Numbered from the stretch's first letter, positions 51,585-59,248 are shown. The stretch is 64,000 nucleotides of DNA from Candidatus Yanofskybacteria bacterium (GCA_016185545.1 JACPNJ010000001.1:22565-86564); one strand, 5' to 3'. Numbers and translations: made by a program. Notes: generated by a model from the sequence alone, not told the origin.

Positions 51585-51735
51585 GGCTACGCGCGCGTGT
51601 TTTGCTGGCCCTTCGGGACAGGCCCCGTTAGAGGCCGCGAGGGCTCGCAGCGCGCCTCTGCCTCTAACGGGGCAGGCGCAAAACGCGCGCGCCTCCGCCG
51701 GTAAACCCGCTTCGCCAAGTCTGACTTGGCTTCGC
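51585..51735. repeat. GC-rich nested palindrome, family D copy (GCGCGCGTGTTTTGC...CCCCGTTAGAGGC...GCCTCTAACGGGG...GCAAAACGCGCGCGC plus GCCAAGTCTGACTTGGC)
   Basis: About 100-bp near-perfect dyad at 70-80% GC directly after rplU. The 51538..51738 ORF is just its translation. Confidence 0.5.
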
Positions 51736-51897
51736 TAGCACCTTTCTTAGCAATTTACGAACGATAAAAACCGCCCCTCCCCAGTTTTACTAAACTGGGG
51801 AGGGGCTTAGGGTTTGTAATTTTTGACAAAATTTAGTAAAAGGCCAGCTTATTTAAGAAAGAAAAACAAAATAAAACCCCCACTTAGTGGGAGCTCT

Positions 51898-52503
51898 TTA
51901 TTTAAAGAATACCCAGATGCTGGAGGGGCTCCATAAAACATCATGGCGTACGGATGAACTGCAAAGTTGTAAACTGTGACCATGAGTATGCGAGCCGTTA
52001 TGGGTATGCTGATCGTAATGCAAAATATCAAATATTGTCGGGTCGCCATTGGAATCAATGAGTGGTTTCATAGCTATGTGTAGCCACTCGTTTTCCGGCT
52101 GGTCTCTGTATTGCAAGCGTAACAGAGGACCGGTTTGGGCTGGCGCAAGTTTTAGACCTAATTTTTGGGCGCGTCTCACAATGTTTTCATAGGGAACCCA
52201 GTCATTAAAACCTAATTGAGCGGCGGAAAGTAATACCAGATTCCATTCTATTTTTTTACGAACTGCCGGTGTTTTATCAAGTATATCGTCAGCCCAGTAT
52301 TCAACCGTAAAGCCGTTAGATATTAATGCTTTGCGAATGACGTTGGTATTTTTGTAAGTGCCTGATTCTATTGTTTTCCATGTGGGAAAATATGGTTTCG
52401 TGTTTTCCTTTTGTTCATTTTTACCGACAATCAGGATACTGCCAACAACAAAGCAAAGAAATATAACAATCGCCGCGAAGTCATATATGTTTATACGCTT
52501 CAT
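51898..52503 (-). CDS. hypothetical membrane-anchored protein with His-rich C-terminus
   Basis: N-terminal TM helix ('FAAIVIFLCFVVGSILIV'); C-terminal 'HYDQHTHNGSHTHGHS'. Confidence 0.35.
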   Translation of the reverse strand: MKRINIYDFAAIVIFLCFVVGSILIVGKNEQKENTKPYFPTWKTIESGTYKNTNVIRKALISNGFTVEYWADDILDKTPAVRKKIEWNLVLLSAAQLGFNDWVPYENIVRRAQKLGLKLAPAQTGPLLRLQYRDQPENEWLHIAMKPLIDSNGDPTIFDILHYDQHTHNGSHTHGHSLQLCSSSVRHDVLWSPSSIWVFFK

Positions 52504-52612
52504 TGATTTCCTTGTGTTTTAGTTGTAAATAAGCCAGTAAGTTTAAGGTAATGAAAAAAACCTACTCTGTCAAATTGCGTGACGGGAGTTCAGAAAGAAT
52601 TATTTGATTGGA

Positions 52613-53209
52613 TTAGTGTCGATGCTTAAGAGCATTTACCAGAGTAATTTCGTCAGCGTATTCAACCGAAGAACCAACGGAAAGGCCACGAGCAAGCCGA
52701 GTCAACTTTACCCCAAGCGGTTTTAATTCTTCTTCAATGTAAAGTGCGGTAGTTTCGCCATAGGTATTGGGATTGGTGGCGATTATTACCTCAATATCCG
52801 GCGTTAGTTTTTGCAGTTCCCTAATTCTGAATTCTAGTTCTTTAATTTTAAGGTTTTGAGGCAATGAGCCATTAGCCGGATTAATATGACCGCCCAGTAC
52901 ATGATACACGCCGTTAAAGGCGCCGGTTTTTTCCATTGATTGCAGGTCGGTGACTTTTTCAACTACTGCAATGCGAGTTTGGTCGCGTTTAACACTTGTG
53001 CATATTGCGCATTTTTCAGTGTCCGCGAAGTTAAAACATTCTTCGCAAAATGTCGGTCCGTCTTTAAGCGCGCTTACCGACTGTGAAAATTCATCCAGTT
53101 CGTTTTTGGGCCACTCCACCATAGCCAAAACCAACCGCATTGCCTGCCTCGGCCCAATCCCCGGTAGTTTCGTAAAAAAATCAATCAGTTTTTGGAATTT
53201 TGATGACAT
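52613..53209 (-). CDS. recR: recombination protein RecR
   Basis: 'LIDFFTKLPGIGPRQAMRL' HhH, C4 zinc finger 'CEEC...CAIC' and a Toprim segment. Start trimmed to the M at 53209. Confidence 0.85.
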   Translation of the reverse strand: MSSKFQKLIDFFTKLPGIGPRQAMRLVLAMVEWPKNELDEFSQSVSALKDGPTFCEECFNFADTEKCAICTSVKRDQTRIAVVEKVTDLQSMEKTGAFNGVYHVLGGHINPANGSLPQNLKIKELEFRIRELQKLTPDIEVIIATNPNTYGETTALYIEEELKPLGVKLTRLARGLSVGSSVEYADEITLVNALKHRH

Positions 53210-53337
53210 TTTGATTTTTTCCTGAATACGCCACCCGAGTGGCGTATTCACGCCCCATGACACCTTTTATTTTTACCATTCCCACAAGGGGTGAGCGAAG
53301 GAATATCTGATTTTAAACCCCCAATAAATTAGAGTTA

Positions 53338-53548
53338 GGCGGAGGCCATAGTGCCTTTTGGGACTTCTGGATTATTTAAAAAATTAGGCGAGGCCATTAT
53401 GCCTTATAGCACCGTTGAAAGAGTGGATTGCACGGTCATTGAGCAGTATAATGCTCATCACTGCGAAATGAATCCACGCTTTCAACGGAGCGACGCAACC
53501 TCGCTGGGGTTGCTAGCGGTGATAGAAGGCATAACGGCGAGCCGATTT
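53338..53548. mobile_element. family C left-TIR fragment (53338-53370) fused to MITE family B copy 2 (53378-53548)
   Basis: GGCCATAGTGCCTTTTGGGACTTCTGG followed by AAAAATTAGGCGAGGCCATTATGCC...GGCATAACGGCGAGCCG, which matches 23965-24135. Confidence 0.5.
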
Positions 53549-53607
53549 TTGAAGTTTCCAAAAGACAGTATGGTGAAGCCCCTAATTTATTGGGCATGTT
53601 TGAAAAA

Positions 53608-58219: not shown

Positions 58220-58261
58220 TCTTGAATTATAGCAATTAGATTTGTTATTACCAATTAGCAC

Positions 58262-58335
58262 TCTTGACCCCAAACAAGGCAAAGACACGCTGCGGGCCCT
58301 CGCGGCCTTGTTCGGGGCAGGCCCGAGAGTGCCCA
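58262..58335. repeat. GC-rich palindrome family D fragment (inverted copy)
   Basis: 'CGCTGCGGGCCCTCGCGGCC' is the reverse complement of 51634-51653. It shares 'CGGGGCAGGC' with the rplU-downstream copy. Confidence 0.35.
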
Positions 58336-58345
58336 TCCTTACTTA

Positions 58346-58372
58346 TTAGCACTCTACCCTTGACAGTGCTAA
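58346..58372. promoter_or_regulatory. CIRCE operator (HrcA binding site)
   Basis: TTAGCACTC-N9-CAGTGCTAA against consensus TTAGCACTC-N9-GAGTGCTAA (17/18). Directly upstream of hrcA. Confidence 0.6.
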
Positions 58373-58373
58373 T

Positions 58374-59159
58374 TTGGCGATTATAATGAGAAGTATGATT
58401 ACTCAAAGGCAGGGGATATTACTCGCGTCAATAATTGAAAATTTTATCAGGACCGCGGAACCGGTAAGCTCAAAATTGCTTGAAAAATCAGGGTTTTTTG
58501 GTTTGAGTTCGGCCACAATCAGGGCCGAGATGAATGGCCTTGAAGATTTGGGTTTTCTTGCTCACATTTATACTTCCAGCGGACGTGTGCCGACAGACAG
58601 GGCATATAGGTATTATGTGGATAACATGGTAGTAAATCAAAAATCAAAAATCAAAAATCAAAAATATCAAAACGTGATCAAGAGTGCCGTCCATGATGCA
58701 GGGACAGATCCAAGAGAAATAAATAGAATTGTGGCGCAGACATTGTCAGAGTTGTCGGACAATCTTGTTATCACCGGAATTGAGGAAGAACAGGATTTTT
58801 TCAAAGTCGGACTTTCAAGCTTATTTGAAATGCCGGAATTTCGCGAGTTTGACAGGGCTTTCCGGCTGACAAGTTTTTTTGACGAGTTTGAGTCATTGTT
58901 TAATAAAATTGAAAAAGAATTTTTTGACTTGCCTGCCGAAGCTTTAGCGAAGGAGGGTGATATAAAAATTTTTATTGGTCGTGAAAATACGGTTCCCGAT
59001 ATACGTGACGAAACTGTTATGTTTGTCAAATATAATCTTCCGCATGACCTAACCGGTTCGCTTACCCTGATCGGCCCGACCAGAATGGATTATGCGAAAA
59101 ATATCGGCCTGATTAAATACGCAACCGGAGAATTGAATAAATTAAGTAAAGAAGTATAA
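58374..59159 (+). CDS. hrcA: heat-inducible transcription repressor HrcA; start uncertain (58374/58386/58395)
   Basis: 'RQGILLASIIENFIRTAEPVSSKLL' wHTH and HrcA C-terminal domain. Contains the (AATCAAA)x4 microsatellite at 58634-58662, translated NQKSKIKNQKYQ. Confidence 0.8.
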   Translation: MAIIMRSMITQRQGILLASIIENFIRTAEPVSSKLLEKSGFFGLSSATIRAEMNGLEDLGFLAHIYTSSGRVPTDRAYRYYVDNMVVNQKSKIKNQKYQNVIKSAVHDAGTDPREINRIVAQTLSELSDNLVITGIEEEQDFFKVGLSSLFEMPEFREFDRAFRLTSFFDEFESLFNKIEKEFFDLPAEALAKEGDIKIFIGRENTVPDIRDETVMFVKYNLPHDLTGSLTLIGPTRMDYAKNIGLIKYATGELNKLSKEV

Positions 59160-59171
59160 AAAATATCATGG

Positions 59172-59248
59172 ATCCCGTTAGAAGTCTCGCTCGCCAAGTC
59201 TGACTTGGCGAGTCCGTAGGACCTTGGCGGGGCTACTTCTAACGGGAT
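59172..59248. repeat. GC-rich palindrome family D copy filling the hrcA-grpE intergenic region
   Basis: ATCCCGTTAGAAGTCTCGCTCGCCAAGTCTGACTTGGCGAG...CTTCTAACGGGAT, which shares the GCCAAGTCTGACTTGGC core with 51707-51723. Confidence 0.45.

What the first reader, a model, noticed from the sequence alone, without database searches (positions are those of the whole stretch)
51585..59248. Family of GC-rich nested palindromes (CCCGTTAGA...TCTAACGGG / GCCAAGTCTGACTTGGC) in an AT-rich genome
Copies lie at 51585-51735 (after rplU), 58262-58335 (inverted, between mntH and hrcA) and 59172-59248 (the entire hrcA-grpE spacer). They share blocks GGCCGCGAGGGC(T/C)CGCAGCG, CGGGGCAGGC and CCGTTAGA(G/A)G, plus the perfect mini-hairpin GCCAAGTCTGACTTGGC. 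Local GC is 70-80% against about 40% background. They could be REP-like mobile palindromes, transcription terminators or attenuators (one sits between hrcA and grpE), or small RNAs.
Basis: seen in the sequence. Interest (0 to 1): 0.6.

Follow-up and report, generated by a model that had tools for sequence, protein, structure and literature searches.

The report
Small mobile hairpin elements in Parcubacteria
The three GC-rich palindromes are real. They are copies of a family of tiny transposon-like hairpin insertions (MITE-like) found in this group of ultra-small bacteria, not terminators or small RNA genes; many relatives of the family sit exactly on gene start codons.

Summary
All three copies and their shared blocks are at the stated coordinates and exceed chance.

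They are inserted DNA.
- **Copy C (hrcA-grpE spacer):** a 75-nt element with 13-nt inverted ends and a 4-bp target duplication (TGGA). The closest relative (L001) has the empty site ATGGAAGA.
- **Copy A:** a composite. A 50-nt hairpin with duplication CAGG sits in the loop of an older palindrome that L001 carries without it. A second small hairpin insertion lies next to it.
- **Copy B:** a related hairpin between the two half-sites of a CIRCE operator.

I found four more members in the window and 13 in 0.87 Mb of related Parcubacteria. None turned up in 2 Mb of control DNA. Of 19 elements, 14 have perfect 4-bp duplications, against 0 of 19 in an offset control. Twelve of the 14 elements that begin with T abut a start codon, all in one orientation.

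No terminator signature and no Rfam match were found, and the interiors are not conserved.

[quoted passage not shown] No autonomous partner was found.

The parts
59169..59251 (.). Copy C. Element TCCCGTTAGAAGT...ACTTCTAACGGGA at 59173-59247, flanked by the duplicated target TGGA at 59169-59172 and 59248-59251. The element's last A plus the right-hand TG form the grpE start codon (59247-59249). The upstream ATG copy (59168) opens an 11-codon uORF that stops inside the element.
   Evidence: Sequence. Empty site ...TAAaaccATGGAAGAC in L001. Fold -45 kcal/mol, z = -4.8. uORF. Homologous interiors in L226, L203, L221 and L257.
51619..51676 (.). Inner element of copy A. Hairpin CCCCGTTAGAGG-(26 nt)-CCTCTAACGGGG at 51623-51672, flanked by CAGG at 51619-51622 and 51673-51676. 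This is a 54-nt insertion in the loop of the outer palindrome.
   Evidence: L001 carries the outer palindrome with the uninterrupted site GGGACAGG|CGCAAAAC. The 26-nt loop is shared with B and with L172.
51583..51701 (.). Outer palindrome of copy A (CCGGC TACGCGCGCGTGTTTTGC ... GCAAAACGCGCGCGC CTCC GCCGG, with a CTTCGG loop). It belongs to a different, older repeat unit of about 190-280 nt bounded by AAAATTACAAACC / GGTTTGTAATTTT (about 51547-51826).
   Evidence: 97% match to L001 3031-3091 in the opposite orientation and a different gene context. One compensatory G-C to A-T change separates the two copies.
51714..51730 (.). Mini-hairpin GCCAAGTCTGACTTGGC in the tail of copy A. It lies in a stretch of about 30 nt that is absent from the L001 copy of the unit. 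The same 17-mer forms the internal hairpin of copy C (59193-59209).
58268..58321 (.). Copy B. Hairpin CCCCAAACAAGG-(26 nt)-CCTTGTTCGGGG at 58268-58317, followed by CAGG at 58318-58321. It has no target duplication. Its loop is the reverse complement of the loop of A's inner element.
   Evidence: (I2). All 12 stem pairs are kept, 4 of them by changes on both sides relative to A. A 91% identical copy sits at the same place in L172 (9028-9095).
58255..58335 (+). CIRCE-like operator split by copy B: TTAGCACTC TTGA[B]CCCGA GAGTGCCCA. Removing the 54 nt leaves a 9-nt spacer, TTGACCCGA. The right half-site has two mismatches to GAGTGCTAA.
   Evidence: Canonical 9-nt CIRCE in L001 and L003. Hairpin-bearing CIRCEs also in L002, L172, L188 and L215 (two).
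58346..58372 (+). Intact second CIRCE (TTAGCACTC TACCCTTGA CAGTGCTAA). It overlaps the -35 box of a perfect TTGACA-16-TATAAT promoter-like site for hrcA (58360-58387).
27232..27335 (.). Fourth member (D). CCCCGTTAGATAT-(AT-rich 74 nt)-ATATCTAACGGGG plus CAGG, 80 nt downstream of the Y1 transposase-like ORF and overlapping the 5' end of the rpsB ORF. No target duplication.
38964..39103 (+). Member E. TCCCGAACGAGG...CTCGTACGGGA at 38968-39099 with target duplication TGAA. It abuts the rplJ (L10) start codon at 39099.
42159..42281 (-). Member F. Element at 42163-42277 with ends TCCCG(T/A)ACGAAGTAGC and flanks TCCA/TCCG. It abuts the start codon (42163, minus strand) of a 680-aa ORF and lies downstream of a promoter-like site at 42367-42339. 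It is 84% identical to L172 500-616.
44974..45097 (.). Member G. TCCCGTACGAGACAG...CTGTCTCGTTCGGGA at the 3' end of rsmH. The last 15 or so codons and the stop of the ORF lie in the element. No target duplication.

Best explanation
The three copies are non-autonomous transposable hairpin elements. They belong to a MITE-like superfamily that, in the DNA sampled, occurs only in Parcubacteria (Candidatus Yanofskybacteria and relatives).

**What a member looks like.** It is 48-237 nt long and encodes no protein. It ends in 12-17-nt inverted repeats that start (T/C)CCCG(T/A)(T/A)(A/C)GA, and the interior is freely variable. It is normally flanked by a 4-bp duplication of the target.

**Shown here**
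- Insertion relative to empty sites in a relative.
- The end repeats and the target duplications.
- Dispersal and restriction to this clade.
- Nesting of one element inside another.

**Inferred**
- Copies are moved in trans by a transposase encoded elsewhere. A staggered-cut (DDE-type) enzyme is the most likely kind.
- The elements that begin with T prefer ATG(A/G/T)(A/G) targets, and those that begin with C prefer TTGA|C.
- Insertions survive where the duplication rebuilds the start codon or the -35 box, so the gene stays intact.

**The three copies.** C is a complete element at the grpE start. A is an element nested in another repeat. B is a related hairpin that split an upstream CIRCE operator and is old, because it is shared with L172.

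**Likely side effects (inferred).** C places a strong 5' hairpin and a short uORF in front of grpE. B probably disables one CIRCE copy, leaving the second, intact CIRCE to control hrcA.
For: **Empty sites**
- L001 (HrcA 81% identical) reads TAAaaccATGGAAGAC where the window has the 78 extra nt of C.
- L001 has the outer palindrome of A without the 54-nt inner hairpin.

**Target duplications.** Among 19 elements of the CCCG[TA][TA][AC]GA class, 14 have a perfect 4-bp duplication, 2 match at 3 of 4 positions and 3 have none. An offset control gave 0 of 19 perfect.

**Distribution**
- 6 elements in the 64-kb window and 13 in 0.87 Mb of Parcubacteria.
- 0 in 1.28 Mb of other bacteria and 0 in 0.78 Mb of viral contigs.
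- Only 1 CCCG-footed hairpin of any kind in shuffled sequence, against 48 real.

**Ends conserved, interiors not.** The end repeats are kept through compensatory changes while the interiors are unalignable between subfamilies.

**Independent insertions at the same or nearby sites**
- L221 has a different subfamily member at the grpE start codon.
- A C-type copy sits in frame inside hrcA of L221.

**Start-codon position.** 12 of the 14 elements that begin with T abut the ATG of an ORF of 86 aa or more. Promoter-like sites lie upstream of the elements.

The features fit the published definition of prokaryotic MITEs: under 500 bp, end repeats of 4-30 bp, direct repeats in younger copies, and stable stem-loop transcripts (PMC10969869).
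Against: - No full-length element with these ends and a transposase gene was found in 0.93 Mb, so the partner and its enzyme class are unknown.
- Copy B, the other CIRCE-borne hairpins and copy D lack a duplication and instead end in CA(A/G)G. A simple staggered-cut model does not explain this.
- All ten asymmetric elements that abut a start codon share one orientation relative to the gene. Random DDE insertion does not predict this; it requires selection or a directional mechanism.
- B is conserved at 91% between lineages whose GrpE proteins are only 59% identical. This could mean constraint rather than neutrality.
Confidence: 0.75

Rival explanations
1. REP/REPIN-type elements moved by the conserved single-copy Y1 (HUH, RAYT-like) transposase of these genomes. 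The hairpin would be the enzyme's single-strand substrate. The flanking 4-nt repeats would arise because the target and the element's own cleavage site are read by the same guide, not by staggered cutting.
For: - A Y1_Tnp ORF lies in the window at 26489-27151 (PF01797 32.9 bits; NF047646 31 bits). It has 3697 homologues in Patescibacteria.
- Member D lies 80 nt downstream of it.
- The core of the gene's own palindromes, TTAGAGGC, equals the stem core of A's inner hairpin. The palindrome core in L248, TTAGAAGT, equals the stem core of C.
- Elements at start codons share a fixed orientation.
- Hairpin-plus-CARG members lack duplications.
Against: - The palindrome associated with the gene (ACTTAGAGGCTCAGCCTCTAAGT) occurs only at that locus. 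It is not the dispersed element.
- Where both the gene and an element are on one contig, the cores do not match: L257 has TTAGTGGC against TTAGAAGT, L259 has TTAGTAGC against TTAGAGAC, and L175 has CCCTAGGC against CGAACGAGAC.
- The flanking tetranucleotide differs between near-identical elements (TGAA, TGGA, TGTA, CTCA), as expected for a copied target rather than a fixed cleavage site.
- The NCBIfam score is below that model's cut-off of 80 bits.
Confidence: 0.13
2. Functional cis-acting RNA or DNA structures kept by selection. Examples would be 5'-UTR hairpins that gate translation or are cut by RNase III (as with Correia elements), or a hairpin-extended CIRCE that changes HrcA control. Mobility would only be their origin.
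For: - Strong folds.
- Position in 5' UTRs directly against start codons, in a fixed orientation, with a short uORF in each case where the upstream ATG copy is kept (10 of the 12).
- B is 91% conserved in L172.
- Six CIRCE operators carry a hairpin at the same spacer position. Both half-sites are intact in L002, L188 and one copy in L215.
- Precedent for RNase III cutting at MITE ends in mRNA (PMC10969869).
Against: - Close relatives lack C and A's inner hairpin and keep the same genes.
- Interiors are unrelated between members at equivalent positions.
- The right half-site of the CIRCE holding B is decaying in both the window and L172.
- No expression data could be examined.
Confidence: 0.08
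3. Rho-independent terminators or attenuators.
For: GC-rich stems. One copy sits between hrcA and grpE, and one sits after rplU.
Against: - The terminator scan places no site on A, B or C.
- rplU has its own terminator-like hairpin at 51517-51546, before A.
- No T-run follows any of the three stems.
- Family members sit mostly at 5' ends of genes.
Confidence: 0.02
4. Small RNA genes or members of a described RNA family.
For: GC-rich islands in an AT-rich genome, with low folding energies.
Against: - No Rfam family at gathering score in the window, and none convincing at E up to 10 around A.
- No promoter-like site inside the elements.
- Only the terminal stem is conserved.
Confidence: 0.02

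Closest known systems
Prokaryotic MITEs, e.g. Correia (CREE/NEMIS) elements of Neisseria and ERIC of enterobacteria
   Same: - Short, with no coding capacity.
- Terminal inverted repeats and flanking target duplications.
- Many dispersed copies, and one element nested in another.
- Located just upstream of genes and co-transcribed as a long hairpin.

These are the properties listed in PMC10969869.
   Different: - The duplication is 4 bp, usually TG(A/G/T)(A/G) or TTGA; from memory, Correia duplicates TA.
- Some members are GC-rich, although MITEs are usually AT-rich.
- Interiors differ completely between subfamilies that share the same ends.
- The elements show a strong bias for start codons and for one orientation.
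- No cognate insertion sequence is known.
Rickettsia palindromic elements (RPEs)
   Same: Palindromic selfish DNA in a reduced genome that can sit in frame inside essential genes.
- A C-type copy lies inside hrcA in L221.
- The sister 45-nt hairpin lies in grpE and twice in dnaK of the window, and is absent from relatives.
   Different: - A, B and C themselves are intergenic.
- The elements are shorter (45-130 nt against about 150).
- Sequence relationship to RPEs was not tested and none is expected.
- Target duplications are evident here.
REP/REPIN elements with their RAYT (Y1) transposase
   Same: GC-rich extragenic palindromes that form long hairpins. A single-copy Y1 transposase-like gene flanked by its own palindromes is present in the same genomes.
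   Different: - The dispersed elements are not the palindrome that flanks the gene.
- They have target duplications.
- Their ends do not co-vary with the gene's palindromes.
IS200/IS605-derived palindrome-associated elements (PATEs)
   Same: The subset without duplications (B, D and the CIRCE-borne hairpins) is a hairpin plus a fixed 3' tetranucleotide CA(A/G)G, inserted right after a specific tetranucleotide (TTGA). This resembles insertion 3' of a target without duplication.
   Different: - Most members do have duplications and true terminal inverted repeats.
- No IS200/IS605-type left and right ends were seen.
- The resemblance rests on my recollection of that family's mechanism and was not tested.

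Membership tests
MITE (miniature inverted-repeat transposable element) | Length under about 500 bp and no transposase ORF | tested here: met
   Elements are 48-237 nt. Only short uORFs of 9-60 codons run into them.
MITE (miniature inverted-repeat transposable element) | Terminal inverted repeats (about 4-30 bp) | tested here: met
   Ends of 12-17 nt in A's inner element, C, D, E, F and G, and in 13 elements from relatives. B has a 12-bp stem with one A/G difference.
MITE (miniature inverted-repeat transposable element) | Flanking direct repeats made by target duplication | tested here: met
   14 of 19 perfect 4-bp repeats against 0 of 19 in the offset control. Met for C (TGGA) and A's inner element (CAGG). 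Not met for B and D.
MITE (miniature inverted-repeat transposable element) | Presence/absence at orthologous sites (evidence of insertion) | tested here: met
   C and A's inner element are absent from L001. For B, only the restored 9-nt CIRCE spacer argues for insertion. L001 and L003 lack that CIRCE copy altogether.
MITE (miniature inverted-repeat transposable element) | Multiple dispersed copies | tested here: met
   7 members in the window (6 by the scan, plus B) and 13 in 0.87 Mb of relatives. None in 2 Mb of controls.
MITE (miniature inverted-repeat transposable element) | A related autonomous insertion sequence with the same ends | tested here: inconclusive
   No pair of such ends 260-6000 bp apart with a duplication in 0.93 Mb. 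An IS30-like element in L259 has different ends. No whole genome was available.
REP/REPIN with RAYT | The same palindrome flanks the RAYT gene | tested here: not met
   The Y1 ORF at 26489-27151 is flanked by, and contains, ACTTAGAGGCTCAGCCTCTAAGT, not the CCCG-footed sequences. The cores do not co-vary in L175, L257 or L259.
REP/REPIN with RAYT | No target duplication | tested here: not met
   4-bp duplications are present in most members.
Rho-independent terminator | GC-rich stem followed directly by a run of T | tested here: not met
   No terminator-like call on A, B or C. The sequences after the stems are GCAGGCGC, CAGGCCCG and ATGGAAGA.
Any Rfam RNA family | Match to a covariance model at its gathering score | tested here: not met
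   Only 6 tRNAs in the window. The best hit around A at E up to 10 is far below threshold.
Rickettsia palindromic elements | In-frame insertion in protein-coding genes | tested here: not met
   A, B and C are intergenic. A C-type copy in L221 hrcA and the sister 45-nt element in grpE and dnaK are in frame, so some family members behave like RPEs.
CIRCE operator (for the sequence around B) | TTAGCACTC-N9-GAGTGCTAA inverted repeat upstream of hrcA/groE/dnaK genes | tested here: not met
   The half-sites are present but 63 nt apart. The second copy at 58346-58372 meets the definition, as do 55 copies in relatives.

The most novel reading that the evidence does not exclude
The subfamily that begins with T may be a transposon lineage specialised for translation start sites. 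It inserts at ATG(A/G/T)(A/G) and rebuilds the start codon from its own last A plus the duplicated TG. Wherever orientation can be judged, it lies in one orientation relative to the gene. It leaves a short uORF and a long hairpin in the 5' UTR of essential genes (grpE, rplJ, cysS, recR). The related subfamily that begins with C does the same at -35 boxes and inside CIRCE operators, where hairpin-bearing operators persist across lineages. If orientation and persistence reflect function, these elements form a mobile layer of translational and heat-shock control in genome-reduced bacteria. They might be linked to the unusual Y1 transposase gene that carries its own palindromes in frame.
Probability: 0.2. 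Interest if true: 0.7.

Novelty: new member of a known kind. Interest (0 to 1): 0.45.

Why it matters
Parcubacteria and other Candidate Phyla Radiation bacteria have genomes of about 1 Mb and are usually described as streamlined. Here about one small mobile hairpin occurs per 10 kb, including copies in the control region and operon of the heat-shock genes. Sister elements are translated inside DnaK and GrpE.

I found no paper describing such elements in this group.

Practical consequences:
- These insertions explain odd GC-rich islands, over-long ORF calls and extra peptide loops in annotations of these genomes.
- They provide presence/absence markers for strain tracking.
- The start-codon position gives a testable case of how an insertion can be tolerated in front of essential genes.

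Tried and rejected
- **Rfam.** Gathering scan of the whole window and an E-value scan around A found nothing relevant.
- **Viral contig scan** with the 14-mer TCTAACGGGGCAGG gave 87 hits. None had the partner arm, so they are chance matches; the pattern was too short.
- **Exact look-up of the window's HrcA** found no record.
- **Protein database searches with translated elements.** The C-type peptide gave one hit. The 45-nt element's peptide gave no candidates, although relatives in hand encode it, so that result is uninformative.
- **Autonomous partner.** A long-range search for end pairs 260-6000 bp apart found nothing with a duplication. IS30-like ORFs in L259 have other ends.
- **IS200/IS605-style reading** ('tail carried with the element') was rejected for most members. 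The flanking tetranucleotide changes from site to site among near-identical copies.
- **Y1/RAYT link.** Tested on three further contigs that carry both the gene and an element, with no matching cores.
- **Promoter inside the elements.** None was called.
- **Correction of an early idea.** I first thought the palindromes inside the Y1 ORF were insertions. The protein alignment shows they sit at conserved positions in all homologues.

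
Full report
**Source and setting.** The window has 42% GC. Its HrcA is 81% identical to that of a Candidatus Yanofskybacteria genome (L001, JACOZZ010000027) and 68-71% identical to two other Parcubacteria/Paceibacteria genomes (L002, L003).

**Check of the observation.**
- The 20-mer shared by A and B and the 17-mer mini-hairpin shared by A and C occur nowhere else in the window. Their chance expectations are 0.00 and 0.03.
- All three fold much better than shuffled sequence. The effect is strongest for A and C (z about -5) and weaker for B.
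- GC is 70%, 69% and 59% for A, B and C.
- No Rfam family matches.
- No terminator-like site is called on any copy. rplU has its own terminator-like hairpin upstream of A.

**Copy C is an insertion.** In L001 the hrcA stop is followed by aacc and then ATGGAAGAC, the grpE start. The window reads ATGGA[TCCCGTTAGAAGT...ACTTCTAACGGGA]TGGAAGAT (alignment A8).
- It is therefore a 75-nt element with 13-nt inverted ends and a 4-bp duplication of TGGA.
- The grpE start codon is rebuilt from the element's last A and the duplicated TG.
- L221 carries a different element with the same kind of ends at exactly this site.
- Elements with an interior homologous to C occur in L226, L203, L257 and, in frame, inside hrcA of L221. 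Their internal hairpin varies by compensatory changes.

**Copy A is a composite.** L001 holds, in the opposite orientation and next to different genes, a unit of about 190 nt that includes A's outer palindrome at 97% identity. It lacks the inner hairpin and reads GGGACAGG|CGCAAAAC.
- The window has 54 extra nt there: CCCCGTTAGAGG-loop-CCTCTAACGGGG plus a second CAGG.
- The stretch carrying the mini-hairpin is also absent from L001.
- A is therefore an older repeat that has received two later small insertions.

**Copy B sits between CIRCE half-sites.** The sequence is TTAGCACTC TTGA[50-nt hairpin + CAGG]CCCGA GAGTGCCCA. An intact second CIRCE follows and overlaps a perfect promoter-like site for hrcA.
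- B's loop is the reverse complement of the loop of A's inner hairpin.
- The two stems differ at four pairs, each changed on both sides, and all 12 pairs stay paired.
- L172 has the same arrangement with a 91% identical B.
- L001 and L003 have only one uninterrupted CIRCE, so there is no strict empty-site comparison for B.
- Hairpins are inserted at the same spacer position in L002, L188 and twice in L215. In all six cases, removing the hairpin plus CA(A/G)G restores a 9-nt spacer, and none has a TTGA duplication. I cannot explain this subset.

**The wider family.** A scan for hairpins with a CCCG...CGGG foot found four more members in the window:
- D, next to rpsB.
- E, at the rplJ start.
- F, at the start of a 680-aa ORF.
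- G, at the 3' end of rsmH.

A GrpE-anchored scan of metagenome contigs supplied 80 related loci, and these held 13 more members. I modelled each element as N-CCCG...CGGG-N' with a 4-bp duplication.
- 14 of 19 have perfect repeats, 2 match at 3 of 4 positions and 3 have none. An offset control gave no perfect match.
- The duplicated sequences are mostly TGAA, TGGA, TGAG and TGTA for elements that begin with T, and TTGA for those that begin with C.
- No element of this class occurs in 1.28 Mb of unrelated bacterial loci or 0.78 Mb of viral contigs.
- Ends are conserved, with compensatory changes between the TTAGA and TACGA types. Interiors are unrelated between subfamilies.

**Position and orientation.**
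- Twelve of the 14 elements that begin with T lie directly against the ATG of an ORF of at least 86 aa. These include rplJ, grpE (twice), a CysS-like ORF and a RecR-like ORF. Two more such cases turned up later, in L203 and L257.
- Promoter-like sites lie upstream of the elements, which puts the elements in 5' UTRs.
- The upstream copy of the ATG opens a uORF of 9-60 codons that always stops inside the element.
- When oriented by the downstream gene, seven F-type and three E-type elements align collinearly, so they all have the same orientation.
- The one copy inside an ORF (L226 1762-1830) has the opposite orientation relative to its ATGAG. This hints that selection, not the insertion mechanism, sets the orientation, but it is a single case.

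**Mechanism.** End repeats, a site-specific 4-bp duplication that varies between near-identical copies, empty sites and nesting are the hallmarks of a MITE (definition in PMC10969869). The simplest source is a staggered-cut transposase acting in trans. I found no autonomous copy, so this step is inferred.

The main rival is mobilisation by the Y1 (RAYT-like) transposase. That gene is present in the window and very common in Patescibacteria. Its own palindromes share a TTAGARG core with some element ends. However, these palindromes are confined to the gene's locus, and they do not match the element ends on three other contigs that carry both.

Functional readings (RNase III sites, translational gating, a modified CIRCE) cannot be excluded without expression data. 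They are not needed to explain the sequences.

**Verdict.** The finding is real. Its 'mobile palindrome' reading is right in substance. The best label is a new, clade-specific MITE family with three heterogeneous representatives in the stated interval. The start-codon and -35/CIRCE positions, the fixed orientation, and the hairpin-plus-CARG subset go beyond the ordinary and remain open.

Noticed in passing
window 26351-27172 (ORF 26489-27151); L248 9944-10742; L254, L257, L258, L259: The Y1 transposase-like (RAYT-like) gene carries a 23-nt perfect palindrome, ACTTAGAGGCTCAGCCTCTAAGT, five times: twice upstream, twice inside the ORF and once across the stop codon.
- The internal copies sit at conserved protein positions and encode L-R-G-S-A-S-K.
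- Homologues in other genomes keep the layout but use a different palindrome, e.g. CTTAGAAGTTCAACTTCTAAG or ACTTAGTGGCTCGGCCACTAAGT. The DNA palindrome therefore co-varies while staying in frame.
- 3697 homologues were found.
   Followed up: partly
window 59541-59587 (grpE), 60202-60248 and 61567-61613 (dnaK); L003 2894-2942; L169 1334-1369; L243 6875-6906: A 45-nt hairpin element (GAYCCCGTAAARTCGCC...GGCGAYAACGGGGCAAG) is inserted in frame and encodes [15 protein letters not shown].
- It is absent from grpE of L001 and L002.
- It is present at a different position in grpE of L003.
- Alignments of dnaK from L001, L002 and L003 are shorter by 37-73 nt, consistent with its absence there.
- The copy in L243 has compensatory stem changes.

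This behaves like a Rickettsia palindromic element.
   Followed up: partly
L002 9912-9973; L188 533-598; L215 29-94 and 108-178; L172 9021-9105: CIRCE operators in other Parcubacteria carry unrelated CCCC...GGGG hairpins plus CA(A/G)G, inserted exactly after the TTGA of the spacer. The half-sites are often still perfect. This could be recurrent site-specific insertion, or an old insertion kept by compensatory change.
   Followed up: partly
window 48590-48622; L173, L192, L216, L221 3358-3383: A GC-rich hairpin, CTCCGCCTTCGCCAAGGCTTCGGCGGA plus CAAG, apparently within coding sequence (reading ...SAFAKASADKQ...; ORF not checked). Near-identical hairpins of the form CCCGCCTTCGC..GGCGGG plus CARG occur in four relatives.
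   Followed up: no
window 22672-24134 vs 53377-55246; 29852-29969 vs 55423-55540; L001 4572-4748 and 10755-10923: Other dispersed repeat families of 50-170 nt at 75-97% identity. One of them fills the grpE-dnaK spacer of L001. These are further small mobile repeats unrelated to the CCCG family.
   Followed up: no
window 23877-23945 and 51760-51826 (reverse complement); L001 2950-3010: A conserved module, AAAATTACAAACCCTAA - variable GC hairpin - GATTTTTATC, that looks like a portable terminator. It forms one end of the larger unit that holds copy A.
   Followed up: no
window 58936-58976 (hrcA) and 39612-39652; L221 9576-9692: A loop of HrcA is an insertion hot spot.
- The window and L001 have LPAEALAKEGD there. 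This stretch matches window 39612-39652 in the opposite orientation.
- L002 has another sequence and L003 has none.
- L221 has a C-type hairpin element in frame.
   Followed up: no
window 58634-58665: A tandem AAAATC hexamer repeat inside hrcA, read in frame as KSKIKNQKYQ.
   Followed up: no
window 56963-58336 (-) and 59713-59890 (+): The longest-ORF calls for mntH and dnaK run into repeat-rich intergenic DNA.
- The likely mntH start is ATGCACAAA at 58219.
- The likely dnaK start is [10 protein letters not shown] near 59890.
- The grpE-dnaK spacer holds another GC-rich island at 59727-59776.
   Followed up: no
L200 4946-5146: Two CCCCGTTAGA elements lie in tandem, each flanked by TTGAC. This suggests repeated insertion into the duplicated target, a -35-like TTGACA.
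   Followed up: no
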